DNA of 61,324 nucleotides from Halocafeteria seosinensis (lineage: Eukaryota). Of this stretch, positions 1,851 through 51,273 are shown in pieces. Where the stretch lies: NCBI GenBank assembly GCA_001687465.1, contig LVLI01000685.1, positions 1-61,324 on the forward strand, written 5' to 3'. How positions within the stretch are numbered: position 1 is the first letter of the stretch; every line of letters begins with the position of its first letter. The position numbers were made by a program, and so were the translations under genes. The notes below the pieces were generated by a model. It saw nothing but the letters and a program-made list of their open reading frames with translations, made no database searches and was not told the origin of the DNA.

Positions 1851-4800
1851 TTACGGACGGTTTCTTACCCTTCTTCCCTGGGCACGTATTCTTAGTATAT
1901 GAGACCAGTACTCCCAATACATGAGCTGCTGCTCCTTCAAGGCGTCGTTATCTATAGAGTTGGTGGATTCACCAACGTTGATGGCGACTACAGCTTCTGG
2001 CCGGACCGACGACACAGTCTTCACTTCATTTGGCGTGTCGGTGAAGGACACTAGAGACAATTTGAACTCTATCTTCATCTTGGACAACGACGAGGTTTTA
2101 ATGCACACAGAGAAGTGCTTTTCTGTTTCTTGTTTATCCCATTTCAACAGTAGGTCTATGGGGTTATAGTCCACGCCACTCGTCGCAGAGATATCCGTTG
2201 TCCATACACGGGTGAGAATTACATGTTGAGGTTCTAGAGATTCATTTAGACTACGCCGCCTGATTGTGATATCCACATTTTGTAACGTAGAGTCAGCCGC
2301 ATATTTCTCATCCGAAAAGAATATCTCCTGTTCTTCTATATCGGCACGGATGCCGGAGAGGTAAACTGCACACGACACAGGCTGAGGCTCAGGAGTCGCC
2401 TTTAGGTTTGCAATTCTCCGCTCTATGTCTTCAATGCTTGAGCTTAATTCTTCGCTCCGAGATTCTGCGTCATTCAGCCTTTGTTCTATGTTCTCCAATT
2501 CTGTCTTGTTCTGAAACTTAATTCTTAGCGTGCGATTCTTTATAGCCTCAAATCCTTCAAAATCTTTCGTCAAATTTCGTCTATTCCCCGATAGACGAGA
2601 GAAGACTCCCTCTTTTCTTTGTACAACATTCTGTGCATGGTCTAAAGTAAGAGTCAGATTTGCATGCACTTGTTCACTGGTTAGTATCCGTTCCAAGAAC
2701 CTTCCATCAAAGCCGAATTCGCAACCATCATCATCGATATGAGCTTGAGGATCAAAATTGATTGCCGCTTCGTAAGTGCATCCGCGAATCGGAAAGATAC
2801 ATGAACCATCGTTAATAGTCGCATCAGGGTCAAAGTTAAAAGCTTCTCTACAAGTACACCCTTCTCTTAGTCCCGCTTCAAGCAAACATTCTCCATTGTC
2901 TATTTCAGCATCTGGGTCGTGGTTCTGCGGAGAAATGAAAACAGGTACGCAGATTGAGGCATACTATGTCACGACTACGTGCATGTAATGCGGTCACATA
3001 CCTTAGCCAAAGAATAACTACAGCCAATAGTCTTTTTGTTTGAGCATGAGCCATCATCAGTCGTTGCCTGTGGATTGTAATTCCCATAGCTAGGCTTTGT
3101 GCAACCAAATATGTCGAAAGAACCCAAAATGCGCTGGTTCTTGTCCGTAGGACAAAAACTGAGCTGGTCTAAGTCAAAGATGATTCCTCTACTTCTAATA
3201 AAGCTGTGGCAAACAAATACGTTAGGAGGAAATACGGCGATACTCCCATCCTCGAACACCAGGCTAAGTTTCGTTAGGATGAGTGCTTGCGTAAACGCTG
3301 TCTGCTTTGAAGCCCATTGTCTTAGTCCATTTGCTGAAGTCTCAACCTCCATCGCCGTGTCCTCAAGAGTATACGTCCTCAGCGACTCGCGGAAATGTGA
3401 CTCTACGCAGCGTGTAACTTGCACGATTCCAGTCCCGTCCCCATCAACGACACCTAAATTTGCCAAGCTACCATCAGAATCTCCACTCTGTAGACGCGAA
3501 TCGAGTCCCTCGCATCCTGTATCAGGGTGACGCACTTGAAAACCCCCGCCGCGTACAGCTTGAATAGAGTCGACACTAAACAACCCTTCCTTGCTGAACC
3601 CCACCGCAAAGGATATATGACGTTTAGAGGACATTCCCCCATCAGTTATTAGTTCTTTGGACGCGTTTCCCCCACATGCACGTAGTATTGTGCCAGGTCC
3701 AGAACGATCATCTCCTTTATCGGGGATTTTTCCCCCTCGAGCATCCAAGTGGAGACTATGAGATGCATTGGCTGTTTCCAAATGATGTTGATCGAACGCA
3801 GTAGCGCATTGTACAGCAATACGCCCTCCAGAACCACCCTGATGTGCTGAGGTGCATTTTCCGTCCCCCCCTGTCGTTGTAATCAAGCCACTGCTATGAT
3901 GCAGTATATCTGTCTGAAGATTGAAACTTCCGCCAGCAGCTGAGCCACTGCATTGAAAAGTTAGACAAAGAGAGTGGTAAATGTAAGAAGAAACATAATT
4001 AAATTGCAGTGCATTGCCACTCACGTTGAACAGCTCTCCGATGCCGTTCCTCTTAAATCGACTAAACCCTCAATTCGACATTCGCTGGCGTTTAATGATA
4101 AGTGGGCTCCGCCGAAAGACTCGGTTGTAAAACCTTTTGTAAAACCTTGACAAGTGCCACTCCCTGGCTCGTTGGGACTGAATACATCACCGTATGGGAA
4201 GCCTTCCTCTTCCTTCACCCATATAGAGCCCTTCCACCAAATCCATCCTTCATGTTGTCCCCCGCCTTCACCCCAGGTCAACCTGAATATCCAGCTCGGG
4301 CGTGTTTTCACTGCGTATACTTGCCCATTTCCATCAAAGGGATGTATGTCATCCCTAGACGTTATAAAACCATTAACGTTCAGATAACTTGTAGTTGGTT
4401 CTCCATCATCCACTGATCCGAATGTGAAGTCGCCACATTGACGGCTGGAACATATTTCCGAAGTGTCGCCGTTTTCAAGATAGCTAGCAGCTCTGATTGC
4501 AAAGTCCTCCACGAAAAAGTGGGTAAATCCGAACGGAATCGGAATGTCATAACGGGTGGTATGGCCTCCATCACGATCCACACTGTAAGGACGAACACCG
4601 CCTTCAAAGAACCCCTTTTGGGCACAATTCCCGCTGCAATCAACAGTAGCATCGAGGATGTCCTTTGCGATCTCTTGCGTGATACGAGTAAATCCATCCT
4701 TGCATTTTACTTCAAACGACCGACTACCGCCGGAGTCGAAGGGATCTATGGTGTAGGTTCCGTCCTCCGGAACATGCAGACAGCTCTTGAAGAGTCCGTC

Positions 4801-7800
4801 ATCTGTGTATATCTGCGCAGTCTCAATGGCTCCGATGCCTCCATGGGAAGCTCCGCGGGTGGCTGACTTGCCCGGTCCAGCACATCCATATCCTCGACCA
4901 GTTCCATTCACTATGGCATTTTCCTCGAGAACAACATCACTGGCATTTATCTGAGCCATACCGTTCACAAAGAGAGTAGAAGAATTTTTCACCCATAGTT
5001 TCCTTCCAACATGAATCAAAGGGCTGCTGCCGCTAGAAAACAGTGCCATGCCTTCAACATCGAGCCGATCAAGGGAAAATTCGCTGCTGACAGAATCGTC
5101 TATCATTAATTTACTCCGCCCCGACAATTGCAAGACATCGCCCTGAAAGTTAACTCTCGAACCATCGAACGATGAAATATTACCGACTGCTTCCTCAGCA
5201 AGTGAAAACGTATCGACAGCAATTGTCAGGCTCCCAAAGGACTCCATTTGCAAACTCGCCTCGCTTCGAATGTCCATCATCGTACCAACTAAGTTTACTA
5301 CGTCCCCACTCAAACACATTCGCGATTTGTCCAGCATTGTGAGCGCTCTAGTTTCCAAGCTGGAGACTGCAGAAGACAGAACGTGCAGTGTTCCATTAGA
5401 TGTCATGGTGATTCCTTCCACAGCCAGCGAGCTTTTTGAATTTACACCATCTATTACAAGCTGCGCATCGCCTGTAAGACTGAGAGTGTTCACTCCCTCC
5501 AAATTCCCCTCAATTTTCACTGAGGTCGACAGAGTAAGATGCTCTGGCGTATGAAGTGTACTGTTCTCTTGAACATGTACATTGACCTGACATAGGGCTA
5601 AGCCTATGTCATCTAGATGGTGAAGGGTAGTGTTGAATTCACCCCATTGCTCGTCAACGTAGACACTTCGGTAAACTCTACCGTGACTCATGCTCAAACG
5701 CTGTACTGGGTAGAAGGTTACATTTTGTCCCGGGGTAATCGTCCATGTAGCAGTGCCGTCGCCCACTAACGTCAGAACTGACATGTTTCTTCGAGTGGGA
5801 GTATCGGACTCCTCAACGCCGATGGGCACCCAGCGCAGTCCTCCGCCACCCCGCAGTACCAGGCGCGATATGTTGATGCCCAATACATTATCCGTTATCA
5901 CAGCTTGTGACGCTACCGTCGACTGTGGCATGCTGTTATCAACTTTAAGATCTCGTATTCCGGTAGCAAGTTCCAAATATACAGTCCCCGGTGCGGAACG
6001 TTCCGATCGGCCCACTGTATCTGCCGTTTCCACACCACCTCCACCTACTGCTTGTGTGGTATGTTCCAATAGGTCGCGTGCCCAAGATGACTCGGAAATG
6101 ACAGCTATACGTCCTCCACTACCACCGCTACCTCGAATATTACCAGGGGCGCCATCACCTCCATTAGCCTGCAAGAGAGCCGCATGTTCCAGAAGAACGC
6201 TGCAGTTAAGAAGAATGCTTCCTCCAGCGCCGCCTCCAGCTCTGTAAACAGTTATAGCAAACAAAAACAACACCAAGTCGGGGTAAAGAGCGACCCCACA
6301 AAGGGTATATCACTGAAAAAAACTTACTCGTCACTGCTGCAATCGCGAGTAACAGCATGGCCACCATTGGCTTCAATTATTCCTGCAATACTGGCGTTCT
6401 TCAGAACTTCCAAGTGTATAGCGGCGCCTCCATGCCCTGCAACGTGTTGACCTTCCCACAAAGACGCGCACGCTCCACTTCCGATGGTAGTGGGGTAAAA
6501 CGCATCACCATTGGCAAACGCCCCAAAGGTATCATTGAAATCCTCAATACTTACCGCAGCTGCCCCTATACCACCATGGGATCCTCCCTGAGAGGACATT
6601 GTAGGAGTCCCCGGACCATCACACGGACTAAATCCTCGTCCAGTACCACTAATAGCGGTGCGTGGACCCATGGAAAGGGTTAGAGTCCTGATCTTAGACT
6701 GCCCTCCAATGAAGACTGTCGATTCGTTGCAGAGGTGGATGTGTTTAGACACGTTCAACGTCGCATCCCGGCCGGAGTCAAGTTTAGCGGTATCAAGCAG
6801 AACCATGGTGTCGAAAGAAAACGAACCCTCTTGACCGTGGGAAAAATTAAATCCCGCGTTTTCTTCCATTCGAAAGTCACTAAAGGCACTTGACGACACG
6901 TTGGAAGCGTTCATGGCAATCTGACAATTATCATTTATGCTTACGAGGCCTACACTGACGCTTAGATTTCCTGACACATTTGTCCTAAGGAGGGCATCAT
7001 GTTCCATAACCAACTCGTCAAGCATGATATTCAGGTCGTTTCCAGCTTCAAACAGCATGGAAGATTGTCCAAGCATCAATAATTCACGGGAGATAAAAAA
7101 CGCTCCGGAACTTCCATTGATCTTCATACGTCCATTTTCGTTGAGAAATACCGCAGAATAATTTAGCGCGGAATTGTTGGAATCTACGTTTACAGTACCG
7201 TCGGTGCTTACACTTAGCGATTGCACCCCATCCCAACTCCCATTCACTTCAACAGAGACGTTAGAAACCAAAATATGGTCGGGAGTCACTAATCGACCTC
7301 CCTTACGGACACCCACGTTAATTCGAGTCAGGGCCAAATTAGAATTATCAATGTAAACCGGCTCAGCGAGCACGTGTTCCCATTGTTCACGTGACACTTT
7401 CCGAATCACACTGGGATCGGTATCAAACGGCAGATAACTACCATCGGAGTCATTGCCAGCAGACACAAGATGACCTGTTTGGTTTTTGCTAATGACCCAT
7501 TGCCCTGTTGCATCCCCCAACGCGTTATCAATAACAAACTGACCCCAACCTTTCGTTTCTGGCCACCAACGGACGCCGCCGCTATGGTACAGGCCCACTG
7601 CATTAAAGTGAAGTTGTGAAACGTTATCCACAATGATGGACTGTAAAGATTCACTCATCGTGTTGTTGCCATTGTCTACCGTTAGAGTATTGAACCGAGA
7701 GTTACCGCATTTCCAATACACCGTCCCCGGTCCCGATCTCCTTACATCCTTGGCATCATCTGTATCGGGACCAAACAGCCCACCTTCAGCCTCTTCCTTG

Positions 7801-10800
7801 GATGAGCCAGCAATCAGTTCTTCACAGTACACTGCAATCCTTCCCCCACTACCACCAAATCCCTTATTCCCGGAACCACTACCTCCATTAGCGGTTAATT
7901 TACCGGTATGACGCAGCGCATGAGCTCGCAACAAGACACTTCCCCCCGCACCGCCACCAGCACTGCAAACAAAATTTAGCGTATTGTTACATGTACAACC
8001 TTAGTAGAAACAACAATTATACGTACTCGTTAACGTTATTCGTGTGTGCGGAAGCATGTCCACCATTTACCTCGACAATTCCTTCGATTTGTGCTTTAGA
8101 AACGTTGAGAACCGTTGCAGCACCTCCATCCCCTTCTCTACCGTTATTGTGAGGATCGCAACCCGCCAAACCAGCCAATTGAGGCCGGAAGACACTGTCA
8201 TATGCAAAACCAGAACGCGAGCTCAGCTTCATGAATTCCTCCACGGGGTCCAGAGTACCCAGGCCACCATGGGATCCTCCACCGCCCGATATCTCAGTCT
8301 TACAGTCTTTGCCACCTCTTTCTGTTCCGTTGATGGAACTTGTAGAGTCTATAATTAATTCACGTGCCTGAATGCCAAGGCGGCCACCAAACGACAGTGA
8401 CGAGCCATTACTTAGCTTTATCAGAAGAACGTCCTCAAGGCGAGTATCGTCTCCGATGTCAAACGATCCTCCGGTTAAGGTTACTTCTCGGAACTCGAGT
8501 GTTTTTTCAGAGGTTGTAAACGAAACCTTAGACGACCCTCCAATAGACAAAGACGGTCTAAAAAACCAAAAGTGTCCGCTCACGGATACATCGAACGTTG
8601 AACGCTCCAATAAATCCAGGTTTTGAGTCTGTAGCTTAAAGTCACCGTGGCTGAAAATGGAGACGTTTGAGTCTCCAAGCATTACCATCGATTGTAGTGT
8701 AAGATTACCACCTTCTTCGCCCTTCCTTATCGAAAGGTCAGACCCCCAGGTTAGACTCAAATGCTTGACACCAATCCACTGCCCCCAAAGATTGATAGGA
8801 ACCTGTGACACGCTGACTATGTGGGGTGATTTGAAAACGCCACCTTTGTGGACATCCAATCCTACTTCCCTAAGGGCAAACGTAATCTGATCACGGTAGA
8901 AAGTTTGAATGTCAACTTGAGTCCACAGACCGGACGACATTTGTACCAAGTCTGTAAAGGTATATCCTATGCCTCGGTTAGTGGTGGTGACACCGTCTTC
9001 ACTGCTACTGGCAATATTTAACGAAGCGTTAGTAGTCGTCGAATTTTCGGTCGTCTTGTCTTCAGACGAAGTCTCCTCTGGATTGGGTAGGAGAAAATCA
9101 AACGTACCCATCTGATTTTCCACTAGCGACCATCTCCCAGTTGTGTCCCCGCTAAGTCGCCTCACCGAAAACACCGTCTCGTGACGGGTATTAGGTATCC
9201 ACTGGATGCGACTTCGACCCGAAACATGCATTTTGTCAAAATGCAACCTTTCCTGGTTATTTACGATAACGGACTCTGTAAAGTTTTCCAACCTACCGGC
9301 ATCGAGACTAACGTTGCCGTTGTCTATACGAAGCTCCCTCAAGTATCTTGGACCGCATTCTTGGTAAACGGTTCCAGGGCCAGAGCGCCAACGACTCTCA
9401 CTGTCACCGAAGAACCCCCCAAATGCTACAGCATAATCTGCCACTACCATAGATGGGAAAGATAGCTCTCTACAAAGTACGGCTATCCGTCCACCCCCTC
9501 CACCATGGCCGCTATTGCTGCTTCCATTACCTCCATTCGCAAGGAGGGAATGTCTATCAGCGACCAGGGTATCTGTCTCAAGTAAAATAGAGCCACCAGA
9601 TCCACCTCCATCTCTGCAAAGTTCGCATTCATAGACAACCGGTAAACACAGTATACAAAAAGTCAATGTATGCCTTTACTTAACACTTACCCTCCGACAT
9701 CGAGGACGTTGCCACCACTGACGTCTATCTGTCCGAACACACGGGTTGAATTCATCGCCTGCAGATGAAGGGCTGCGCCACCCCCGCCGCCATGCTCACC
9801 AGATCCACCACTGCCTGGTATAGTTGGCTCAAAGACATCTCCATAAGCGTTGAGCTCGCTATTTTTCTCTCTAAATGTGAATACATCTTCAGTGGTCCCC
9901 ATCCCTCCGTAAGAGCCTCCAACATGACGGAGAGAAGACGAACCCGGTCCTGAGTTGCCAGGGTACCCATTGGAACTACCGTTCATCACGGCGTGAGTGT
10001 CGACCAACAAATCTTCTAGACTAATATTTACGATATTGGTCATGTTGACCACAGAAGAATCCAATACATAAAGGTAGTTTCTCACAAACATTGATGCACT
10101 TTCCCCACTGTCAAAAAAAGCATTGTCGTGCAACCCTACACTTCCAAAGGAAAAATTACCAGACTCTTTGGATAGTACAGTTAGAGCACACTGATTCCGA
10201 CAGCTCATCGACTCCATTACAAAGTTGACGCTGGTTTTAGTGTCTACTGTGGTCGAAGCATTATCCACTTGCTTCCATACGTCAACTGCTGCGTAAGTGA
10301 CGTCTTCGGAAAACGTCCTGATTCGCGAGGTCTCCATTAAAGAAACATTCCAAATGTTCAAAGTCAACTCTCCTTCACTTCGGACATCCAGCATTGAATT
10401 ACCTACCATCGACAAGGTTTCGAGGAAGAGTTGGTTACCTAGAACCGTCACGGTGGCTCCTGTACCAATACTCAAGTGATCCACAGAACGCCATCTACCT
10501 TCCAAATTTATAGGAATATTGCGAGTAGCAATATGAGAAGGTGTAACCAGTTCCGCATTCTCATGAACATCTACTCCCACCTGAGTGAAGGCTAGTCCGA
10601 TCTCATCCTTGTGGAGTACTTGCAAATCTATTTGTGCATATTCACGGGACTCGTTCCGGTACACGGATGAATAAGAATAATGATGAGGGAGCGTCAGGGG
10701 CAAGTGATTCATCGAAGACTGAGGATTCCGAACGTCAGACGCTCCAAGTAAAACGCATTGTCCATCCGGTATACTCAGTCTTCCACCAGTATCGCCTTCG

Positions 10801-13800
10801 AGAGCGAGGATAGTAAATATAGGCGTGGTATTTGCTGGCACCACTTGTGGAATCCATTGCAAACGTGACTGGCCATTAATCACAACGCGATCTAAGTGCA
10901 GCGAAGGACCGCTGTTGAGGATGAGGCTCTCTTTAACGTTTTGCGAATGATTATTACCATTTTCGACTAACAACTCTCCTGCGCTATTGGGACCACATTC
11001 TTGGTAGATTGTTCCAGGACCAGATCGAGAATCGGCCGAAAAACTGCCACTCAAACCTCCATGAGCTTCCTGGTGAATAACTCCAAGTGCCGGGGCCATG
11101 GATGAAAAGCGATTTTCTGGGACGGCATCTAAACAATAAACGGCAATACGCCCTCCAGCGCCACCAAAATCACCATTTGACCTCCCATCTCCACCATTCG
11201 TCTGCAAGCGTCCGCTCATTGACAATAACGTGGATGCATTCAGTAGAAGACCACCTCCCGATCCTCCACCAGCGCTGCAGATATGAAATGATGAGTCAAA
11301 GAACATTGCATACAAAACAGCAAGCGACTTACCCTTGGGCATTAGAATGTCCTCCATTCGCCTCGATAATTCCAAGGATATGGGCAGTTACTTCAACCTG
11401 CAGATTCAAGAATGCTCCGCCTTTTCCTGCGTTCGAAGAGCAGCACCCGTCACTTCCACCGTACGTGGGTTCGAACACGTTTCCATACGACAACATATTG
11501 TCCGCTTTTGAGAGAATCTCATCCAATGCCTCTGGACTCCCTAAGCCACCATGCGATCCTCCCATCCCATTCTCGGTAGAAATTCCCAGACCGAGCTCTC
11601 CATCCAACTGCCTCATTGTGCCATTAATCGAAGCGTCGTAGTCAACGAATAAACGAACAACTCTCATGGTCGTAGAGCCGCGTACAAGCACAGTTGACGA
11701 ATCCGTTATATCGAGGTTGCCGTGTATGATCGCTGAGCAGCTAGCTCCAAAGTCGAGAGTGGATTCGCCCGTAAGAGTCAGACTGTTCGTTACAAACTCA
11801 CTGAGTTGAAGAGCTCGAAGCCCGAAAACTGTAGTGTCTCCTACACTTGCCATATCGGAAAATATGTGATACTCTTCAGTTGTTGACACGTTCAGCATAC
11901 TTCGGTCAGACGTATTATATGTATTGACCTGATGAGTTACGTTTCCTCTGGATGAGAAATGTGCTTGAGAAGAATTATGGAGGTGGAAGTGATCAGCGGA
12001 AAACACGATTCCGTCGTCGCTGTCGACACCCAAAGCTGAATTTGTTAGAATAGCTGCACCTACAGTAAAATTGACAGCTTCCCTAGACTCCACTGTTAGC
12101 CAAGCGTTTCCACTCAAGAACAAGTTGTCCAAATCTATTTTGTTTGCACTTGAGAAAGACACTCGAGCGCCCCCATTTGCGCTTAAGTTTCGAACACCTT
12201 TCCATCGACCCCAAATATTCATTTGTACAGATGATACCACGATATCAGACGGAGTCATGAAAGTTCCATTTCCTAGAACATCAACCCCAGCAGAAGCCAG
12301 AGAGAGATCCACCCCATCTATATGCTGAAACGCAACGCTTGCATAGAGCCATTCACGTTCTTCCTCCGAAAGGTACCTAACGTATGACCAGTCCTCCGTG
12401 AACAGTTTGTAGCAATTTGAGAACCCTTCGGAGCTGTTTTGACCACCGAGAATACCGATTTGATTGTTGCCGACAACCCACTGAGCACTCTGACTGCCCC
12501 TTAGTCGTCCTACAGAAAAAATGGTGTCATCAAACTCCCGTGTCACATTATCATCTTGTTGAATCCATTCCCAGTCAGGAATCCAGTTCAACCGAGCTCC
12601 CTCCAGTAAAGTGACGGTATCAAAATGAATGAGGCTCTGGTTGTTTACCAATAGCGTCTCGGGTAATACCTGTTCCGAAGGAGCAGCAAGAACGTTGTCC
12701 TGCGGTGCGGTCTTCCTTGTAAAGGGGAAGACGGACTGCCCAAGTAACAAACCAATATCGGGGTTACTATCACTGTGCCGGTTAATGGAGGCGCCAACAT
12801 TTTTTGTAGCCGTGTTAGCCCCATTTCCATTATCGATTTTAGACCCGGTCTCAAAATATTCGATGAAAGGAAATCGCGTCTTAAGCTCCGAGGCGTCAAT
12901 ATTCCGAACGCAATAATGCTTGCCATGCCCAGTTGGATCTCCCTGCCCAATCCAATAATACTTCCCGGGATACAGTTCCACAGGATTATGAAACTGAACT
13001 TCTCCACCTCTCACCGTGGGAGCGCTCGCACTTCGCAAGAGTCTAGTTATTTTACCATTGGTTTCGCCATCAAAAGACGTTTCATACAATGCTAAAACAA
13101 ACTCAACGCTATCCGCGCCGCCTCCTTTCATACCGCTCACCAACACTCGCCTATTGACACTCATGAGATAACCCGTCCAATCGGAACTGGCAGCCTCAGA
13201 TGGCCGTGCGAAACCATCACTAAGCAAGACACTTGCTTTTCGACGAGCTAGTGGCTGTTGGTTGTCAACGGTAAGATTTTGGGTATGGTCAGCTCCACAA
13301 TATAGGTACACTGTTCCGGCTCCAGAGGGCCGAATAATTCCATCAGCATCTCCAATGCCGACTCCTCCAAATGCAGTGGTGCTTAACATAGCCGAAGTGT
13401 TGCCAGAGTTCCTACATCCTTCCTCGTCATCCGCGAAGTTATAATGAACGGCTATTCTGCCCCCGGCACCACCGGCAGCTCCCATATCCGCGTTACCTCC
13501 ATTCGCTCTAAGGGTCCCAGTATGTGATAACAGCTTATCCAGTACCAATAATATAGATCCACCAGAGCCAGCCGCATTCCTGCATGAGTTGAACATTTTT
13601 TGCTAATTGAATGATCAAATCTGTTGCAGAAGCATTTACTTACATTTCGCCCGTAGTCGACGCCCCACTTACATCAACGGTACCGAGTACGTTACCTTCT
13701 AAGATATTCAAGCTCACGTAGGAACCTCCACTGCCTGATGCCTCGCTACAACACCCTCCGCTTCCAGGTTGTCGTGGATAGAACACGTCGTTGTAGCCCA

Positions 13801-28800: not shown

Positions 28801-28983
28801 AGCCGACCGAGACTGAGAAAAGGCATTCGTTTCCGGTGATACAGTGCCAGAGGGGGTTGCAGTGGAGGACCCTTCAAAGATTCGATGGAATTCACTCGGA
28901 GTTGCGGTGAGTGACTCACTTCTTGCAGAACACATGAAGAGGATGCATATCCAAAGGAGCACTACGCTGACTCTGAACTCCAT
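1851..28983 (-). CDS. Gene A: giant secreted repeat protein (~8692 aa) with 13 Gly-rich/beta-solenoid modules, C-terminal Cys repeats, coiled coil and Calx-beta-like domain
   Basis: Exons (minus): 28494-28983, 27678-28422, 23725-27609, 22128-23660, 20425-22053, 18721-20361, 17091-18656, 15386-17020, 13644-15308, 11333-13579, 9691-11274, 8027-9613, 6328-7962, 4025-6241, 3002-3947, 1851-2924. All 15 introns are GT..CAG, 58-86 bp. Spliced CDS is 26079 nt and keeps frame. The N-terminus MEFRVSVVLLWICILFMCSARS looks like a signal peptide. Recurrent motifs: GGGxGGSI, ANGGxG, GGSGGRIAxYC, SGPGT, GGSHGGLG, YGDxFxP, GSGG. Confidence 0.9.
1975..2325 (-). other. Calx-beta-like domain at the C-terminus of gene A
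   Basis: IFFSDEKYAAD...VDITIRR...WTTDISATSGVDYNP..LLLKWDKQETEKHFSVCI matches, by eye, the Calx-beta pattern F..y.v.E..v.v.R..T.dgtA..g.Dy..l.f..get.k.i.v.I. Confidence 0.7.
2715..3105 (-). repeat. Four GCxxxxxxN(Y/F/H)(D/N)PxAxxD(D/N)GxC protein repeats in gene A
   Basis: GCTKPSYGNYNPQATTDDGSC, GCSYSLAK|NHDPDAEIDNGEC (across intron 2925-3001), GCTCREAFNFDPDATINDGSC, GCTYEAAINFDPQAHIDDDGC. Confidence 0.9.
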
Positions 28984-29894
28984 TTTCAGAAAGGTAGGGC
29001 TTATGTAAAGAATTTCCAACGAATGGATGCTGTACACCAGGAATTTTTTATATAGCGAGCGTAGCGCTGGTAGCTCTAGCTCGTCCTCGTCAGAGAAGGA
29101 CGAACCACGATTCTAAAAGGAGTCTTAGTTTGTGAGTGATCCAACGCAAGCAGGCCAAGTGGAAGAGATGCAAAATAAAGCACCCGAGCTGTAAATGCAT
29201 GAATGGAGGAGAAACTTTTGCACCTAGAGACTTTAAAACCAAGGCTTTTTTGTTCCCCTAAAAGTCCCCTTTTTTTTGTTTCGCAGCGACTTCAAACGGT
29301 GTCTTGCTTTGATGTTCTTGTTCTGGAAATCGTACCGGTAGTGTGTACACATTTGCTTATTTATCACCGTAAAGGGCATGGTGCGTCCAAGGAAAATCAA
29401 ACATATACACGCTCAGGATGGTAGTACGATACGAGACTTGAAGCGACTTTCCCTCGGCTATGATGTATCGGCCCGAGGGTCGTCTTCCGGGTAAAGTTCC
29501 GGCAGAATGAGCAAGACTCTTATGGTTTGTCCCAATGAAAGACACTCGATGGTATACAAAGAAACAGTCGCATACATTTTCACACGGTGTCATTGACCAA
29601 TTTATTCATCTTTTCCACTGTGCATTGTCCGGCTGACGTGTACCTTTCGTGCGAACCAGGGCAGTCTCCTTGTGTATTTACGGAGTGTGTATAAAAGAAG
29701 ACCTGGGACAACTTGTGCTACAGAAAGCTTTTCCTTGTTGGATTCTCACCATTGCGAGTGCTGTGTCTCTGTGTGTGATGGTAATACATGTCCTTGACTC
29801 ACGCTCCCACAAACAAGGTACAATCCTGGAAAGAGCCGGTGAGCGCCTGAAGAGAGCGAGGCCACCGTTGGGCTGCCCCGGCAGCAGACGAGGA
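28984..29894. promoter_or_regulatory. Putative bidirectional promoter between genes A and B
   Basis: 911 bp separate the two divergent ATGs. TATATAAA on the minus strand at 29047-29054 faces gene A; TATAAAAG on the plus strand at 29690-29697 faces gene B; TGACGT at about 29634-29639. Confidence 0.55.
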
Positions 29895-41800: not shown

Positions 41801-44800
41801 TCGCACCTCCTCTATTCGAGGTATGGTGTGTCCATTTGCATGTGTACGGAGAATGGGCTTCAACAGAGAATTTGACATTGAAAAGTGGGTCTGACTTGAC
41901 GATTTCCGGCACTGGCTCACACTCTTGGTCGATACCATCGCTCCAATGCCTTGACAACTCAAGTTTCAAGTTTAGTACCTCTAGCGAATTGACGATGAAG
42001 TCACAATCTATGGCGTTGTCAGGCAGTTGCCGAATGGAACTCAAAGCCTCAGACGTCAAATTTTGGGTAGCAAACTTTGATATGCAACGTAACTCCACTG
42101 CGAGTGTATTCAGTAACACCGATATTGGAGTACGTGGTGATACGCTAACAGTGGAGGGCAACTCTAGCCTCATGCTTAATTCGAGTTCGCACACGCGTTA
42201 TGAAGTCAGCTCCTTACGTATGTCCGAGAATGGAAAACTACGTACGGGAACGAACTCCTCATTTGACGTAGGGAATACTATAGAATTGAGAGACAAAGCT
42301 AGCCTTACTGTGCAAAGTTCGCTTACAGTTAACTCCTCTATAATGAAGCTCAGTCGAAACGCCAGCATCAATGGTACCGGAAATGGTTTTGGGCCATGCC
42401 GCAGGCCGAATTCAGTCAGCCATGTTGGAGGAAATCATGGAGGATTAACTCCCTCCAGTAGCGACACCGATTTTGCTGATCTGCAACCCGGTGGCGATGA
42501 ATTAGCGTTCCGTGATGATTTTGTAGACTTGAGCAACTGGAGAATACTAGACAATAGACTTGGTATATCGTCAAAATCATGTGATGGCCGGAGTGGAAGT
42601 ATGTTCGTCAGCAATAATAACGCAAATAGGCGTGTGGCTGCACATACCCTTTTTCGAGTTTCTAAAATTCGGCACTTGCGCTATCACTACTTTGAGACCA
42701 AGACCAGTAACGGTGGAGTTATCAGACTCATTAACGAAGCTGGGCAGAAGGAACTGGGTGTCGCCACGGACAATCCTCAACTGGAAGTTGAGCACAGAGG
42801 AGGTAGGACATTTGTAAACAGACCTAGCTTTAATTACAACGTTTGGGTTCGTGTGGATATCAATATTAATTGGCAAGATCTTAGCTTCCAAGTAACGTGG
42901 TCGCGCTCTGATTCAGGCCAGAAAATAGACTCTTTTAATGGAGGAATGAAAAGGGGATTGCCGATTAGGGAAATCTTTTTCGATAACTATGGTGGTAACG
43001 ATCTCAATATGTGGATTTGTGCTCTGCAATATACGGCCAGTGGGGCGCTCACTCTACCAGTCTATGGCGATGCATTTCATCCAAAGAGTGTGGGAACTGG
43101 AGGATGCGGTGGCAAGTTCGAAAAATCCGGATCTGGAGGAGCAGCTCTTCATATCATGGCAACCACTCGGATGACGATAGATGGAAACATAGAAATGGAT
43201 GGAGGGAACTCGTACAACAAGCAGTAAGTCGTAAATTCTTTGTTACAAGTACCAAACCACTAACTCGACGGTTAATCTTCTTCGTCCTATGGCGCTGCAG
43301 GTCTGGAGGGGGTGCTGGTGGCTCCATCCTCCTTGAAACTGATGAATTGACTTCCGCAGAAGGGTCTTTAAGTGCTGCTGGTGGGAATGTCACCGCACCA
43401 GGTGGCAGGGGAGAAGGTGGTAGTGGCGGGAGAATTGCTGTACGTTGCCAGCGTGTGATTGGCGAAAACAAAGGATTTGCCTCTGGTGTCGCTTTAATTG
43501 AGAATCATATACGCATCCGTGGAGGCCGCGATAGTAGTGGAGAGCACTTATCTGGTGCAGGAACTGTGTTTCGGCTGTGTGGGAGAGGTCGAGGAAAACT
43601 TTTCGCAGACAATACCAACAACAGGAAGTCGTCTGCTGCTACTGTAATTAATAATGAAGGCAGTCAGTTACTTTTAGAAGCATTGATCCTACAAGGCGGT
43701 GCAAGAATACTGTGGTGGCCTACTACCGCGAGAGCGAATAAGACCATCTTCCGAGTAGATTCGCTGGAAGGTGATTCCACTGGCGAATGGATCATTCCAC
43801 CAAACCAGTACGGCTTAATCGGAGTGAAGGAGAAAATTACAACGGAGAACCACACGGATAGTATCATCAACTCAACCGCTGGTGCCAACTTCGTCCAGCC
43901 TTTAGAGTCTACCGAGTCCATGGTCACCACATCTGATGCAACGTCCACGTACGTTTTCTTCACCGAATATCTACTTTCCAATGTCAATATAAACGTAGTG
44001 AGTGGAGGCACTTTAATAACCCCAGAGGATTTTACATTGACTGGAACTAATGTGTCAATGTATGGACAGTGGCCTAACCTCGAACATCTCTATCTATTCA
44101 ATCATTCAAAATTTATAGTTTCGGAAGCTGCTTTTTCTCTCAAAACATTGGTAATGAATGATTGGTCGAACTTTGTTATGAGAAATTCGCAGAGTATTGA
44201 CCTATCAATCAACTCCATGGCTATCAATGATAACGCCATTGTGAATATCAATAGCGAAACGGACATTCACGTGACGGGAGATAACCATGCATTTCGAGGG
44301 AACGCGGAAGTAATCTTTAACGCTACCAGTTACATTTGTTGGTTGGCAGGTACAGTATCCATTGAAGGCAGTAGTCGTGTAAACGTAAACTCTGATGAGC
44401 AAGTTTTGCGATCGAGGAGGTTTAGCCTCCGAAATCAATCTTTCCTTGACATAGGAAGGAACCCAAAATGGTCAGCGAGTGAGGAACTCATTTTAGCGGA
44501 TAGATCTACGGTGAACGTGTCAGGTGTTGCCACCATTTCCACGCACACTTTCCGCTTTTATGAAGGATCTTCAATCAACGGAAGTGCCAGAGGCCATGAC
44601 GGATGCAATGGACCAGGAGTACTGTCCAATGGAAGAGGAGGAAGCCATGGAGGCTTAGGGTCAAAAGAGCCAGTTGACGAGTATCTCGAGAAATCGAACA
44701 GCACGCCCGCCTATGGAAATTTCTTGTTTCCGCGAAGTCAAGGTAGTGGTGGCTCAAGTTGTACCTCCCATGAAGCGAGCCAGGGAGGTGCAGCAGTCGA

Positions 44801-47800
44801 AATCACTGCAAAGGGAGAAACCACTTTCTTGGGCACTGTTTCCGTTGATGGAGCCGATGCTTTCTCCGATGAGTACGTACTAATGGTACTTCATAGACTT
44901 GCCACATAATTGTATTATTCATATTTGTTGCGTGTATACAGGGCTGGCGGTGGCGCTGGCGGCAGTATTTTGGTAAACGTAAGTATCCTTGACCATGAAG
45001 AGTTTGGAACGCTCAGAGCAAACGGCGGTAACGGTGGCGCTAACGAAGCTCATGGAGGAAGCGGAGGTCGGATAGCTTTATACTGTCCCGAAGGCGGTCA
45101 CGATCTCGATACAAAACTCTTTGAAGCTCATGGGGGTATGTATGGAAATGACGACGGCACCGGCCAACGGTCTGGACCTGGAACGATACATCCAGCGTGT
45201 GGACAAGAATCGCGTAAATTGCTTATCGACAATCAACAGGCCACTCCGGGATTATCTTTGGATGCGATTATAACTAATAATGATTCACATATCCACTTTG
45301 ATAAATTGACCATACGAGGAGGGGGAGGCCTGAGATGGCTTTCGACCCATCCCTCTGCGAACAAGACAGTTCTTTCAATTACCTCCTTGGAAGGAGATCA
45401 AAGCGGTACTTTAAGCATCTCCGGTAACCAAGTTGGAATGATAAACGTCGATAACAAACGACGCTCTACCTCCACCAACGCAAGCGACGTCTTCCGGCTG
45501 ACCCAGAGCAGCAGCATTGATGCGGACGACATTCAGGTGCGAGAATATGAATGGCCAGAGAGCTTCTCACTATCAGACGTTGCTTTACGAGTTCAAGAAG
45601 ATGCCGCTATAATAACACCCCCTGATGTAACTGTGTCGGTCCCTTTACAGCTAATCGGCGAATGGTTTGGTTTGGAGCATCTGCGCCTCACGAGAGGATC
45701 TAATGTGACTATCTTCAATGAACCCAGTGGACGCCTAAACGCGAAATCATTAAGTATGTACGAAGATGCGGATGTGGAGTTCTTACGGACCGGAAACCAT
45801 GGTTTTGGAATGGAATTATCTCTGACCAACGTTAATCTCTACGGCAACAGCAGTTTCAGGATTAATTCAGCAAGTAGTCTTGCCTTGCGAAGTAAACAAA
45901 CCACTTTGGAAGGTAACTGCTCTATGTCTTTATCGGCTGCTTGGGTGACAGATCTTAACATTGACCTTTTTGATCTTCATGACACTGCGAACATCGACGT
46001 CGGGCAAGCGATCGCATTTCATGATGATTTCACTAGTCTGAAAAATTGGAATATTCACGATAATGATGTGCGCCATTCTGATGCTTCGTGCAATGGAGTT
46101 AGCGAAAGCATGGAAATTCGGAGTGGAGGAACGAAACCCACGGATGTTGCTACCTTGGAAATGATCAGCGCCAGGAAGGTCCGGTCGTTTTCGTACTATT
46201 ACAAAGAACCGAGCAAGAGTCATGGTGGAGGTATCCGCCTTTTGAACGACCGAAACGAAGTTGAAATGGGTGTAGTTACGGATAACCCTCAATTGAACGT
46301 TCATGATAGTAGTGGATTCAAGCATGTTCATGGTGGTCCGGACAATCCTCAGTATAACATTTGGATCAGGGTAAATGTCGAAATAAACTGGCAGGATGGA
46401 TCGTTCACTGTGGTATGGACGAATGCAGAGAGCAATTCTCAGCTGGCGGTAACTGAAGGAAGACTTCGTCAGGGACGACCAATCCAGCGAATTGGATTCG
46501 CTAACCATAATGCCGAAAAATGGCGACGGAGTGGCAATTTCTTCATGAAAATTTGTTCCTTCTCATTGGATTTTGCGGAAGGTTTACCAACGTTTGCTAA
46601 AATACCGGGTACACAGCGGTTCTTACACAGTGGTACAGAGATAGCAAATGACAATCGTAGTCGTGTGAATTTATCCTCTAACAGACTTACTCTGGCTGAC
46701 GAAGCAAGGCTTCGTTTTCTCGATCAGATTGCATTGAGTGTGTTCTGCTCTGATTTGCAGACAGATGGAAAAGCGCGAATCAACGTTGATCCCAACTCCA
46801 AGGGTAATTTTTCGATTGATAATTTGGTCCTCGGGAATGAAAGCACACTCTTCTCCGGTAACAATTCTCGTTTTAGTGTTTCGCAGGCATTTGAAGTAAA
46901 GGACGATAGTTTGTTGGCGGTGGAACATTCAGTCTCCATTTCTTCCAAAGATTTTTTTCTTGGGCCGAATGCCACTCTAACCGGAGCCGGTAGGGGATTC
47001 GCCGGTTGTGTTGGTCCCCATGGGTCCCTTAAACAATATCATGGTGGCTGTCATGGCGGGATAGGGTCCGTTGAAAGCATCGACCGACATGAGAATGCGA
47101 GTGTTTGCGCCTATGGTGACTTGTTTCAGCCATGGAGTGAAGGCAGTGGTGGTGCGAACTGTGGCTCAGAAGGGCACAGCAGAGGTGGAGCGGCCATTCG
47201 AATCACGACTACGGGAGATGCTAAGCTTGAGGGACAAATTGATGTTTCCGGGGCTAATGCGGAGGTCAACGCGTACGTATTGTATTACAGTAGTGTTGTC
47301 GCTTATCTACGGTAACGATGATAGTGTTTGAATTCCACTTGTTCATCTTTGCAGAGCTGGTGGTGGTGCCGGAGGGAGTATTTGGATAGATACCGAAAGC
47401 CTGCTCGGGACTTTGGGGAAATTCCGTGCGAATGGTGGTAACGGCCGAAGCAGTAAAGGTCAAGGTGGAAGTGGCGGCCGCATATCCATGTCTTGCCGCA
47501 AGAGCTTCACGGACGGTCGAGATGACGAACTGCTTTCGAAAGCCCATTATGAGGCTTTCGGTGGTTTATATGAGGGAGACGTGGCGAAATCTTCTCGTTC
47601 TGGCGCTGGAACGACCTATCTTAACTGCGGTGTTTTGGAGGATGTACTGCTTGTAGATAACGGCCATGAAAGCGACACGAGTGGAGAAACGCTAATTGTT
47701 AACAATGAATCGGCGATTTATTTCAATAGAGTGATCGTGCGAAATCACGCTCGGCTTCAATGGATTCCACATTCAGCTAACGGAAACAGAACGACATTTT

Positions 47801-50800
47801 CAATGCTAGCTCTTCGAGGGGATGAGACAGGCAGCCTAACCATACGATCAACACAGCTTGGTATTATTGATGCGTCTCATGTGGAGAGAGTGTCATCTGG
47901 CCGAAAACAGCAAAATCGTTTCCAGTTTCACGGGATGCTTAACAATAATCCAGCCGTCCAAGCAGAGACCGACCGCTCCAAGTATTATTTTGACCAAGAT
48001 TCCTTGCTATATGTCAAAGAAGTAGGCATTAGTGTTATAAATGGTGGGAAGCTTCTTACTCCTCCTTCCGTCACCACTGCAAGTCCTATGCGGATTGATG
48101 GCGTTTGGTTGGGCCTACAACACCTACGTGTTGTCGGCAAGTCTAGTGTCTCCGTTGCCCTGGAAGAAGATGAGTGGTCTTTAACGTCTCTTTCCATTGA
48201 GGACGAAGCATCTCTTGACGTGCAGAAGTCGGAACACCTCGACTTCAGAGGAATATCACTAACGCTCGTTAATGCGTCAACCTTGAAGATCGTTGGTAAT
48301 GACGTTTTTACGAATTTCAAGACAATGGTTGTGAAAGATGAATCCAAAGTGAACATAACGGCGAATAAAAATACCGCATTAGAGATGGCATCCCTTCTTA
48401 TGAACATCCGAACTTCGATGCATGTATCTTCCAATTCACATACGGAAGTTACTGCTTCCCACATAGACATGATGGACGATTCCGTGTTATCTTTGAAAAA
48501 CTCTACCGTTAACACAATCCAGCTGGAATCGCTGATATTATCAGAGAATGCACAGTTCGATGCCGGAGCAGGTCGAATATTGCTTGATGGGCTTCTAAGT
48601 TTGCAGAACATGAGTGTCATGGCAACACATGGAAACTTTACCATTGACACTTCAAGACTCACTATAGCCACCGATGCTGTTCTGAACGGAACTGCTCGCG
48701 GGTATGGACCGTGTCAAGGACCAGGGACTCCCGGCAACCCAACACCCCTTCGCTATGGTGCATCTTATGGTGGATTGGGAACAACAGATGTTCCAACGAC
48801 CATAGATGAACCATTCGCATACGGTGATGCTTTTCAACCCGCCTTACCTGGAAGCGGGGGATGTTCTTCTTCCGGAGGTCCCATGTCCGGGGGAGCGTAT
48901 TTACGCTTGGCAGTCCGTCTCAGCACTCGACTAGACGGAACTGTTGACTATAGTGGAGGATTCTCTGATGTTGAATCGTAAGTAGTATGCATAATGAAAT
49001 TGACTGAACGTACGAACTTTATCCGTTTTGAAATTCTGCTTTCATTGCAGTGTTGGTGGTGGTTCCGGTGGAGGTATTTGGTTTACAACGAAGACCCTAA
49101 GCAGCGGTCGTGGAATCTTTAAGGCTAATGGAGGAGACGGCCAGGCAGATAGTAACGGAGGATCAGGAGGTAGAATTGCCATCTATTGTCAGCAGAACGA
49201 GGAGGACGTAATATTTGCCGAAGCTTACGGCGGAAGCAGTTCCGACGGGTCATTTTCGGGGCCGGGCACCGTGTACATGGAATGCGTGTCTGAAGGCGTT
49301 GCTGAGCTACTCATTGGGGGCAAAAGCGCTAATCATGGCATTCTTTCCTACGCCATTGTGTTTGCACCTTTAAGAGTAGTTGGGCTCGACCGTGTCAAAA
49401 TGAGGAATGCCGGGTTACGCATACGTAGGAAACCCTCTGACCCGCACGAGGGACTATTTATTTTCGGATCGATAACCGGTGAAGGACCCTCAACCATTCG
49501 ATTGGCTGATGGAGTCATTGGCATCTTTGGAACTGTCTCCGGTGTGTCTTCTCCCGACCATGCTGATACGAGGGTGCAACTCTTAGAGGGAGGAAAGCGG
49601 ATGTTCTGGTCCGATAGTGTGGTCACGACGCAGGCAATAGATCTGAAAACATTCCGTTTACACTTTGAGGAAGGATCCAATGCAATTATGCCTCCCGAAG
49701 TTCGTGTGTGTGGTGGAGCCATCGTAAACACAGGCTCGCTTCAAGGCGCTACAAACTTGACGTTCTGTCCTGAAGACACTAATGGTGAAATCCTTGAGTT
49801 TCCGGTTGTTTTCGGATGCAATGACTCGTCCTACGCAAACTATAACCCTTTGGCAACGTTCAATGATGGATCATGTCGAAACGACACTTTAAAGGGATGC
49901 ACATATACTGTGGCAAGTGTAAGTCTAACATTGTGGCGACTTGTCCATGAACCATTCAATATATATTTACCTATTCGTGTGGATCAATCGCAGAATTTCA
50001 ATCCTTTTGCACAGGAGAATAACGGATCTTGCCGACTTCCAGCAGGTCTAATGGAAGGGTGCATGTGCAAACATGCGGTCAACTTCGTGCCAAATGCTGA
50101 CATCAATAGTGACCCTGAAACATGCGAATACTTAGACCTTCGGGAAGGTTGCGCCTACATAGCTGCCCTAAATTTTGATCTAGATGCTGAGACTGACAAT
50201 AGCAGTTGTCGTATCGGCTCTAAGGATGACTTGTTGAACAAAACTGTGACCATCGAAAACAAGAATGATGTCTTGAGGGACAAGATACAAACTGGTCGCC
50301 GACGAACTGACTACTTGAGCAGCTCGATATCGCGAGCTAGAGACGATATCACAAAACTGAAGGAGGACATAAAGTCTACTAAAAAGGAAACTCAAACTCT
50401 CGAAGGACAATTACACCAAATCAGAGACTCCATGAGCACCAAGAGAAATAAGGCTGAACGCATAGAGAAAGAAAATGCTGAGAAGCAACGACGGTTAAAT
50501 GAATTGCAAGCATCACTGAGACAACATGAAACTATACTGGAAACACCACGTCCTCAACCTACTGGCTGCATCCCCGAAGGTGGTGAAACGCAACTCATAT
50601 CCTTCAAAACGTTGAACTATAGCGTTTCGGCGCTTAGCAAAAGCGTACAAGTTAAATTGGCAAGGAATAAACTGTCAGGTTCGGGACTTCCTTCGGGAAA
50701 GGTAGTGACCATTCTAAAGACAATTGACAGAACGGCCAAAAAGAACGTGAATTATATGCCAACCGAAATGACAATAGCGTGGGAAGGACAAGAGGTAGAA

Positions 50801-51070
50801 AAAACCACCTCAGTCTGCATCATAGACAACCCTCACCGTTCTAAGACTATACGGTTCCAGTTAGAGTTATCTTCCTTTGGAGATGCAACTGACTCTATCG
50901 TGGTGGAAGAACCCCCTTCGCAGTTTGCAAACGTCTATATCGAACCGCCCCCTCCAGAACAAATGGAAATAATTAGTAATGAAGAAAGTCGCCGCCGATT
51001 TTGGTGGGCGTATTGGACCAAACGACTCGCACATGGATATCGTCCTGAAGATGCCGCAGAGCCGTCATGA
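29895..51070 (+). CDS. Gene B: giant secreted repeat protein (~6771 aa), paralog of gene A, with 11 Gly-rich/beta-solenoid modules, Cys repeats, coiled coil and Calx-beta-like domain
   Basis: Exons: 29895-30363, 30444-31092, 31156-32730, 32799-34382, 34454-37894, 37962-39446, 39514-41031, 41100-43223, 43301-44872, 44942-47272, 47355-48977, 49051-49918, 49994-51070. The 12 introns are GT..CAG, 63-82 bp. Spliced CDS is 20316 nt. Hydrophobic AITGALVLSILTLVVDA near the N-terminus is followed by a S/T/P-rich stretch. The start ATG is less certain than in gene A. Confidence 0.88.
49813..50215 (+). repeat. Four GC...N(Y/F)xPxAxx(D/N)xGSC-type protein repeats in gene B
   Basis: GCNDSSYANYNPLATFNDGSC, GCTYTVAS|NFNPFAQENNGSC, GCMCKHAVNFVPNADINSDPETC, GCAYIAALNFDLDAETDNSSC. 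Confidence 0.88.
50594..50946 (+). other. Calx-beta-like domain at the C-terminus of gene B
   Basis: ISFKTLNYSVS...VQVKLAR...KTIDRTAKKNVNYMP..MTIAWEGQEVEKTTSVCIIDN...FQLELS aligns with the gene A domain and the Calx-beta pattern. Confidence 0.75.
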
Positions 51071-51138
51071 GTGGTGGCTTTCCGTTACACAATTATATGC
51101 GTCATGAGTGGTAGCTTTCCGTTACACAATTATATGCG
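51063..51138. repeat. 37-bp tandem duplication spanning the gene B stop codon
   Basis: cgtcatgagtggt(g/a)gctttccgttacacaattatatg at 51063-51099 and 51100-51136, with one mismatch. Confidence 0.95.
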
Positions 51139-51273
51139 CAGTGCCACAAATAAATAGACAGGAATGCAATGTGTACTTATATTAATTACTACTTGCACTG
51201 TGGTGCAGGCTAACTTTCATTCGTATCGCATCCCCTAACTCCGGCAAGGAAGACCGAAAAAATGGTTCCTTGT

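What the first reader, a model, noticed from the sequence alone, without database searches (positions are those of the whole stretch)
1851..51070. Head-to-head pair of giant (~8700 and ~6800 aa) paralogous Gly-rich/beta-solenoid repeat proteins: a candidate undescribed extracellular filament system
Seen: two divergently transcribed genes 911 bp apart share their whole architecture. Shared parts are the signal peptide, S/T/P stretch, N-cap (CTVVNQTVLVGYDESCKL vs CEVVDGSVVITKSESCRL), 13 vs 11 modules, four Cys repeats, coiled coil, PQPxxC, Calx-beta-like domain and aromatic tail. They also share the phase-1 first intron and the phase-0 last intron. The modules are strongly diverged, yet both frames stay intact over 26 and 20 kb, which implies an old duplication under purifying selection. 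Inference: the two products are co-expressed and assemble through their C-terminal coiled coils into a very long glycosylated fibre, hair or coat component. The head-to-head layout parallels partner-chain gene pairs such as COL4A1/COL4A2. I do not recognise this architecture as a characterised system.
Basis: partly seen in the sequence, partly recalled or inferred. Interest (0 to 1): 0.92.

Follow-up and report, generated by a model that had tools for sequence, protein, structure and literature searches.

The report
Paired giant secreted beta-helix rod genes
A single-celled eukaryote carries two spliced, back-to-back genes for huge (8,692- and 6,771-residue) proteins, likely secreted and predicted to fold into rods over 100 nm long from a widespread but unstudied glycine-rich repeat, which likely serve as surface bristles for sticking or shielding; that the two chains build one fibre together is untested.

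Summary
Observation confirmed. Two intact divergent genes (A 8,692 aa, B 6,771 aa; 911 nt between ATGs) share signal peptide, 13 vs 11 Gly-rich modules, four Cys repeats, coiled coil, Calx-beta domain and aromatic tail. Transcript-like contigs splice 4 of 16 introns examined exactly as modelled, in both genes. One module folds at pLDDT 92 into a continuous right-handed beta-helix carrying Gly-rich segments; each chain would be a 110-150 nm rod. The module is not new to this locus: 7,450 sequence clusters, including animal proteins mislabelled Tenascin-X and bacterial giants, none in Pfam or PDB; this scan met what looks like the same module before on other DNA. New here: a protist subfamily with a conserved end cassette (short module, Cys repeats, coiled coil) shared with Cafeteria, and the Calx-beta/aromatic tail found only in A and B. 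The partner-chain (COL4A1/2-like) idea is unproven: pairs arose separately per lineage, the two Cafeteria paralogs found are on different contigs, and a third equally related protein exists. The 56-kb block sits at about half sequencing depth, a hint of hemizygosity.

The parts
1851..28983 (-). Gene A, 16 exons, 8,692 aa (about 923 kDa before glycans; 170 N-glycosylation sequons)
   Evidence: splice joint 22053/22128
29895..51070 (+). Gene B, 13 exons, 6,771 aa (about 722 kDa; 89 sequons)
   Evidence: splice joints
28984..29894 (.). 911-nt divergent intergenic region, candidate bidirectional promoter; much of it covered by transcript-like contigs
   Evidence: no shared motif of 10 nt or more between the two upstream directions
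28606..28983 (-). A: signal peptide, Ser/Thr/Pro-rich stretch, Cys-pair N-cap
   Evidence: sequence; only hydrophobic segment of A is at residue 1
29895..30233 (+). B: signal peptide or signal anchor (hydrophobic residues 21-39), Ser/Thr/Pro-rich stretch, Cys-pair N-cap
   Evidence: sequence
3107..28422 (-). A: 13 Gly-rich/beta-helix modules plus short terminal module; one module per exon, phase-2 intron inside each Gly domain
30444..49813 (+). B: 11 modules plus short terminal module; exon 5 (34454-37894) holds two modules with no intron at their junction
35118..36650 (+). Junction-spanning unit that was folded: continuous right-handed beta-helix with Gly-rich non-alpha, non-beta segments
   Evidence: (pLDDT 91.6, pTM 0.90)
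23725..27609 (-). A exon 3: module lengthened by about 750 residues of 23-residue coils
12670..13269 (-). A: inserted domain of about 190 aa, unclassified
4180..4800 (-). A: inserted domain of about 200 aa, unclassified (starts with an SC..G.Y.IDP motif recalled from fibrinogen-related domains)
42490..43071 (+). B: inserted domain 1, homologous to insert 2; unclassified
   Evidence: 37%, E 1e-41
45996..46640 (+). B: inserted domain 2, at a different position in its module
2721..3106 (-). A: four Cys repeats, split by the last (phase-0) intron 2925-3001
49814..50209 (+). B: four Cys repeats, split by the last (phase-0) intron 49919-49993
2397..2672 (-). A: coiled coil, about 90 residues
   Evidence: heptad count
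50237..50542 (+). B: coiled coil, about 100 residues
2025..2330 (-). A: Calx-beta domain
   Evidence: PF03160 E 1.5e-6
50594..50941 (+). B: Calx-beta domain
   Evidence: PF03160 E 2.8e-6
1854..1940 (-). A: aromatic and basic C-terminal tail; no transmembrane or GPI-type hydrophobic end
50985..51067 (+). B: aromatic and basic C-terminal tail
2787..58564 (.). Block held by one 55,778-nt contig of run X1 at depth 57, against 93 for the right flank and 106-112 for three other contigs; holds most of A, all of B and gene C
   Evidence: hint only, the tool warns that depth is no copy number

Best explanation
A and B are two intact, spliced, anciently duplicated genes whose products are likely secreted, predicted to fold into single-chain beta-helix rods of roughly 110-150 nm studded every 10 nm or so with a glycine-rich bundle, and likely gathered at their C-terminal coiled coils into small bouquets that serve as a surface bristle or coat for adhesion or shielding. 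Shown: gene structure, selection, splicing of both genes, family membership. Predicted: fold of one module (AlphaFold2) and 23-residue coil period. Inferred: length (23 residues and 0.48 nm per coil, about 19 coils per module; A about 140-150 nm, B about 105-115 nm, plus about 14 nm of coiled coil); polyglycine-II nature of the Gly segments; oligomerisation (dimer or trimer, homo or hetero undecided); docking to the cell or matrix through the Calx-beta domain and aromatic/basic tail, which stand where relatives P0092 and P0243 have a transmembrane helix; ligand binding by the Gly bundles and inserted domains. The head-to-head layout is most simply an old local inverted duplication in a compact genome, followed by partly independent gains of modules by phase-2 exon duplication.
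For: Gene models and phases; codon-position constraint with saturated silent sites; splice joints; AF2 model pLDDT 91.6 (44) aligning end to end with parallel beta-helices, Z 18.6 (3p4g, rmsd 3.6, 280 aligned), 17.2 (EtpA 8cpk, rmsd 4.2, 291), 17.0 (Vag8 7akv, rmsd 5.4, 320); period 23; only one hydrophobic segment per chain, at the N-terminus; 170 and 89 sequons; the cassette terminal module + Cys repeats + coiled coil is kept in P0196, Cafeteria P0244 and P0291/P0301, P0092 and, with a short helix, P0243, so the coiled-coil end is old and general; two of these relatives end in a predicted membrane anchor; symmetric phase-2 exons and within-gene module clusters (A3-5,7 SH-aLRT 96; B1-3 91; B5-7 86); paralog sets group by lineage.
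Against: No function is known for any member, so adhesion or shielding rests on analogy of fold, and a shared fold shows no function. Full-length mRNAs are not shown: contig cover of the gene bodies is patchy and only 1 of 4 A introns examined and 3 of 12 B introns were seen spliced, all from one study. The model is of one 511-residue unit; the variable 45-residue loop and the inserts were not folded, and hinges could break the rod. The Calx-beta plus aromatic tail was found only in A and B, which fits a special A-B relationship better than independent function.
Confidence: 0.6

Rival explanations
1. Obligate partner chains: A and B are co-transcribed from a bidirectional promoter and must co-assemble through coiled coil, Calx-beta and tail into one hetero-oligomeric fibre, as COL4A1 and COL4A2 do.
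Against: Pairs arose separately in each lineage; the two Cafeteria paralogs found are not neighbours; P0196 is as close to A and to B (39%) as they are to each other (35%); three other contigs of X1 carry short matches to the module motif, so the genome likely holds more members; chain lengths differ by about 1,900 residues and modules are not collinear; no shared promoter motif.
Confidence: 0.2
2. Variable defence or recognition locus: the rods are decoys, spacers or receptors against viruses or grazers, encoded on a presence/absence block.
For: Block 2787-58564 at depth 57 with no second contig at 85-90% identity over 21.5-58.5 kb, flank and other contigs at 93-112, a multi-copy DDE transposon at its right edge (12, 38, 7); all three genes in the block encode large extracellular proteins.
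Confidence: 0.12
3. Components of flagellar hairs or another specialised organelle (extrusome thread, stalk) of a stramenopile-like flagellate.
For: Closest named relatives with the same end cassette are from the bicosoecid Cafeteria; secreted, glycosylated, filament-like.
Against: The module is equally common in animals, amoebozoans and bacteria that have no such hairs; no EGF-like arrays of the kind recalled for tubular-hair proteins were found in the exons scanned.
Confidence: 0.06
4. The exons are separate short genes, or the array is an assembly artefact or decaying repeat.
For: Most introns were not seen spliced; transcript cover is patchy.
Against: One contig spans the region without a difference; canonical same-phase introns; internal exons lack signal peptides; one junction has no intron; four joints spliced; intronless multi-module relatives exist.
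Confidence: 0.02

Closest known systems
Unnamed Gly-rich (GGSHGG / GGSGGRI / GPGT) repeat family of giant extracellular proteins: Saccoglossus XP_077861759 (4,555 aa), Apostichopus PIK33355 (UniRef 'Tenascin-X'), Pecten XP_033745591, Cavostelium EP01114_P022167 (with kinase), Myxococcales NUN15704
   Same: Same module, period 360-560 aa, tandem arrays in proteins up to 7,809 aa among those fetched
   Different: Those lack the Cys-repeat/coiled-coil end; 17 of 309 fetched proteins have two or more such Cys repeats. A is longer than any protein fetched. None has a tested function.
Cafeteria roenbergensis/burkhardae FNF29_03274, FNF29_01941, FNF27_05365, and EukProt protein P0196 (TSA GECG01008838)
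   Same: N-cap, modules, short terminal module, 3-4 Cys repeats, coiled coil
   Different: Fewer modules as annotated, no Calx-beta or aromatic tail, the two FNF29 genes not adjacent; all are hypothetical proteins
Right-handed parallel beta-helix adhesins and passengers (EtpA 8cpk, HMW1 2odl, Vag8 7akv, pertactin 2iou, Candida Awp1 7o9q; Marinomonas ice-binding domain 3p4g)
   Same: Predicted fold, Z 13.6-18.6; long secreted rods used for adhesion
   Different: 8-13% identity, no Foldseek match at E 0.001 (51); no Gly-rich bundles in register, no TPS or barrel domain; eukaryotic signal peptide, introns, coiled coil
Glycine-rich polyproline-II bundle domains (ALK/LTK GRD, phage S16 gp38 6F45, snow flea antifreeze protein, PE_PGRS; as listed in PMC13243192, passages read)
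   Same: Short GGX runs separated by strands, confidently modelled without alpha or beta structure
   Different: No Pfam match to PF12810 or PF21722 (7); here the Gly segments are built into a beta-helix and repeated 11-13 times; PPII geometry not checked on coordinates
COL4A1/COL4A2 head-to-head partner-chain genes (recalled)
   Same: Divergent paralogs, C-terminal assembly region
   Different: No Gly-X-Y helix (longest run 5-6 triplets), no NC1 domain, pairing not conserved across lineages
Myxococcus gliding protein AgmC, N-terminal model NF047640
   Same: Weak match to the Gly domain of P0196 (E 5.5e-5)
   Different: 22 bits against a cut-off of 275; no match to the ten window exons scanned

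Membership tests
Tenascin | EGF-like repeats, fibronectin type III repeats and a C-terminal fibrinogen globe | tested here: not met
   Pfam on 17 of the 28 A/B reading frames, including all ends and all inserts; the 11 others are plain modules in alignment A1
Type IV collagen pair | Long Gly-X-Y triple helix | tested here: not met
   longest run 5 (A) and 6 (B) triplets
Type IV collagen pair | C-terminal NC1 domain | tested here: not met
   C-termini give Calx-beta and coiled-coil matches only
Type IV collagen pair | Head-to-head genes with one bidirectional promoter and obligate heterotrimer | tested here: inconclusive
   layout present; both spliced in one sample; co-regulation and binding not measured
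Parallel beta-helix adhesins (TPS, autotransporter passengers) | Right-handed parallel beta-helix rod | tested here: met
   predicted model
Parallel beta-helix adhesins (TPS, autotransporter passengers) | TPS secretion domain or autotransporter barrel | tested here: not met
   no Pfam or NCBIfam match
Gly-rich PPII bundle domains (ALK/LTK GRD, gp38) | Sequence match to PF12810 or PF21722 | tested here: not met
   including the exon with an intact Gly domain
Gly-rich PPII bundle domains (ALK/LTK GRD, gp38) | Hexagonally packed polyglycine-II helices | tested here: inconclusive
   Gly segments have pLDDT 88-98 and no DSSP helix or strand (44); coordinates not available; rows are filled by beta-helices
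Calx-beta domain | PF03160 above gathering score | tested here: met
   28.7 and 27.8 bits vs 27
Calx-beta domain | Calcium binding | not testable with these tools
   needs assay
G8 domain proteins | PF10162 above gathering score | tested here: not met
   one exon at E 0.014, 15.8 vs 22.9 bits; some relatives carry G8 (18)
Mastigoneme proteins | Structural match to solved mastigoneme subunits | tested here: inconclusive
   searches are dominated by beta-helices
Mastigoneme proteins | Localisation to flagellar hairs | not testable with these tools
   needs proteomics or labelling
Unnamed GGSHGG Gly-rich beta-helix repeat family | Profile match of the module across tandem repeats | tested here: met
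   profile of 21 window modules finds 7,450 clusters at E 0.001, 1,393 at 1e-30

The most novel reading that the evidence does not exclude
A eukaryotic two-chain fibre system with no collagen in it: partner beta-helix rods of 0.7-0.9 MDa, co-expressed from one bidirectional promoter, zip together at a coiled-coil/Calx-beta foot into a 150-nm bristle with a ligand-binding glycine bundle every 10 nm, and are inherited with a neighbouring thrombospondin-repeat membrane protein as a 56-kb presence/absence surface island.
Probability: 0.15. Interest if true: 0.85.

Novelty: new variant of a known kind. Interest (0 to 1): 0.55.

Why it matters
The module occurs in thousands of giant proteins of animals, protists and bacteria, is absent from Pfam, NCBIfam and the PDB, and is misannotated as Tenascin-X. 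This locus gives it clean exon-defined boundaries, a confident fold, transcript support, and a conserved assembly end shared with the culturable model flagellate Cafeteria, so the function of the family becomes testable in a protist. If A and B prove to be partner chains it would be a convergent, collagen-free version of a paired-gene extracellular fibre.

Tried and rejected
No whole genome is held, so paralogs and synteny in the same genome could not be listed. Synteny in relatives: two metagenome scans and one viral scan returned no confirmed locus; alignment A7 was too diverse to scan with. No run is on record as RNA; X2-X4 are taken as transcript-derived from their spliced joints. Uncovered gene parts in X2-X4 were not used as evidence. 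The last exon of B found no relative of similar length and no Atlas hit; these blanks do not show absence. Inserts: no Pfam or PDB sequence match (the B inserts were scanned in Pfam only). Module profile against PDB sequences: two rows, E 0.078 and 0.84. Neither ALK GRD, gp38 nor a mastigoneme chain is among the rows listed; a second wide structure search for the P0196 model was not run. The idea that neighbour gene C supplies the membrane stem fused to P0092/P0243 was tested and dropped (no similarity). A first junction alignment (A2) was misaligned and discarded; in A3 the C-half rows are shifted by one internal Gly repeat. Papers: ten searches (listings and abstract starts only) found no description of this repeat or architecture. 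Passages were read by term search in PMC4987115, PMC5447177, bioRxiv 10.64898/2026.06.25.734631 and PMC13243192; none of the passages describes it; supplements were not opened (the preprint's are closed) and could list such genes. The organism of P0196 was not given by the tool; I recalled the accession prefix as a bicosoecid transcriptome but could not confirm it.
Full report
Gene structure. The window holds a run of 16 long minus-strand frames (1851-29112) and 12 plus-strand frames (29637-51070) separated by short AT-rich gaps. Canonical junctions give gene A (ATG 28983, 16 exons, 8,692 aa) and gene B (ATG 29895, 13 exons, 6,771 aa), 911 nt apart, with 27 introns of 58-86 nt. First introns are phase 1, last introns phase 0, and all 23 internal introns are phase 2 at the same place inside the glycine-rich domain, so each internal exon is a symmetric module. 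One junction in B (near 36147) has no intron.

Reality. Twenty-one plain module exons are 23-33% identical; A-A, B-B and A-B means are 28, 28 and 27%. Identity by codon position is 42, 53 and 28%, and four-fold sites are at 28% against 26% expected, so silent sites are saturated while protein is conserved. One public run, X1, holds 21.5-58.5 kb in a single contig without a difference; it may be the window's own source and is not independent. Three further runs of the same study, not labelled as RNA, give contigs that skip 4 of the 16 introns examined exactly as modelled, one in A and three in B, plus the intron of neighbour C; none conflicts. A and B joints occur in the same run, X3. One contig is unspliced over B intron 1.

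Fold. The intron-free junction of B (35118-36650, 511 aa), folded with 39 aligned rows, gives pLDDT 91.6 and pTM 0.90. It aligns over most of its length, through the glycine region, with right-handed parallel beta-helices (Z 18.6 to 3p4g, 17.2 to EtpA, 17.0 to Vag8; 8-13% identity), while Foldseek finds nothing at E 0.001. The glycine segments are confidently placed but neither helix nor strand; by analogy with the GGX bundles reviewed in PMC13243192 (passages read) they are likely polyglycine-II helices, which I could not check on coordinates. The coil period is 23 residues. With the standard 0.48-nm rise this gives about 9-10 nm per module and rods of about 140-150 nm (A) and 105-115 nm (B); these lengths are inference. 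A model of relative P0196 (pLDDT 70) shows the solenoid capped after a short last module, then small Cys repeats and a 78-residue helix. The Cys repeats most likely account for the short (92-221 column, 28-37% identity) matches to secreted proteins of marine phages (9 BFVD rows at E 0.001; the matched ranges are not given).

Family. A profile of the modules finds 7,450 clusters at E 0.001 and 1,393 at 1e-30 among 1.84 billion representatives; of 144 top hits new to the session 60 exceed 3,000 aa and 10 exceed 5,000. Named members come from a hemichordate, a sea cucumber (labelled Tenascin-X), a scallop, an amoebozoan and several bacterial groups; the Atlas's nearest clusters are unnamed and mostly molluscan. 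Pfam, NCBIfam and PDB sequences do not cover the module, apart from a weak AgmC match to P0196. Earlier notes of this scan describe what reads as the same module in an invertebrate and in prokaryotes; I did not compare their sequences. So the repeat is old and common, though uncharacterised.

Subfamily. A narrower set shares the end cassette of short module, three or four Cys repeats and, where the sequence is complete, a coiled coil: P0196, Cafeteria P0244, P0291 and P0301, and metagenomic P0092, P0237, P0243, P0250, P0096, P0112; P0237, P0250, P0096 and P0112 show no coiled coil. P0092 and P0243 end in a predicted transmembrane segment; A and B have none and end in Calx-beta plus an aromatic, basic tail, found in no other protein fetched. 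Five short metagenomic or transcriptome proteins (P0103, P0118, P0192, P0195, P0196) are the closest to the window's modules, and several begin or end where the window's introns lie, so relatives with the same exon plan exist.

The pair. In a tree of the end cassette (11 rows) A, B and P0196 group (91/97), the two Cafeteria proteins group (99/97) and P0096 with P0112 (90/87, long branches meet). A-B identity is 35%, each to P0196 39%. In a quick tree of 55 module units (24 from the window, 31 from 12 of 16 relatives tried) all window modules and P0196 form one clade (SH-aLRT 99); A and B labels are no more clustered than shuffles (126 of 500), there are within-gene clusters, and no one-to-one order. 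The Cafeteria paralogs lie on contigs of 602 and 750 kb with distant locus tags; their neighbours were not seen. Three other X1 contigs carry short matches to the module motif, one with two matches 1,385 nt apart. Duplication of this gene type is thus recurrent, and the head-to-head pair is local as far as could be seen. Binding of A to B was not tested.

Mechanism. Most likely each chain enters the secretory path, is heavily N-glycosylated, folds coil by coil into a stiff rod with the Ser/Thr/Pro stretch and N-cap at the far tip, and is bundled at the C-terminal coiled coil; heptad positions are mixed Ile/Leu and do not decide dimer or trimer. The Calx-beta domain and tail would tether the bundle where relatives use a membrane helix. 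The periodic glycine bundles and inserted domains would give many weak binding sites along the rod. Adhesion to surfaces or prey, or a protective brush, is the best guess (0.6); an obligate A-B fibre is the main rival (0.2).

Side finding. The X1 contig that holds 2787-58564 has depth 57, against 93 for the right flank and 106-112 for three other contigs, with no second near-identical contig over 21.5-58.5 kb and a multi-copy DDE transposon next to it. This would fit a hemizygous block of three large surface-protein genes whose left edge falls inside A's last exon, where the window has no internal repeat to explain a break. It is a hint only.

Verdict. Real and well supported as genes; a new, extreme variant of an uncharacterised family that works like beta-helix adhesins but is not a member of those families; not shown to be a new two-chain system. 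Interest 0.55.

Noticed in passing
window 51274-58373 (-): Gene C: 2,342-aa predicted type I membrane protein with five or six thrombospondin-1 repeats, EGF domains and Cys-rich repeats; one intron (57978-58048) seen spliced; convergent with B, with transcript-like contigs running across both 3' ends.
   Followed up: partly
window 2787-58564: Single contig at about half the depth of flanking and paralog-bearing contigs; possible hemizygous block with its left edge inside A's last exon.
   Followed up: partly
window 58900-61324: Multi-copy, transcribed DDE_3 (Tc1/IS630-type) transposon region with diverged copies and a repeat between 58896 and 59554.
   Followed up: partly
window 42490-43071 and 45996-46640 (+): The same unclassified 190-aa domain is inserted at two different positions of two B modules (37% identical), suggesting a mobile domain; looks like a beta-sandwich lectin from its pattern (recalled, untested).
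   Followed up: partly
window 543-1031 (+): Small RING-like zinc-finger ORF convergent with A.
   Followed up: no
window 1-190 and 1400-1660: Short direct and inverted repeats, and three Ns at 26-32.
   Followed up: no
P0096 and P0112: Two AT-rich-looking, apparently intronless paralogs with near-identical internal repeats, listed with the same 100,379-nt contig length; not found in the viral collection.
   Followed up: partly
P0002-P0005, P0090: Large single-frame relatives begin with an F-R-G stretch a few codons before the GG[AS]GG motif, which may mark a phase-2 intron near the same module junction in other eukaryotes.
   Followed up: no
P0237 (RYE99254): Labelled as archaeal but groups with protist-type members, probably a eukaryotic contig in a metagenome bin.
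   Followed up: no
P0061: An amoebozoan member joins the modules to a transmembrane helix and protein kinase, a layout like ALK/LTK receptors with their glycine-rich domain.
   Followed up: no
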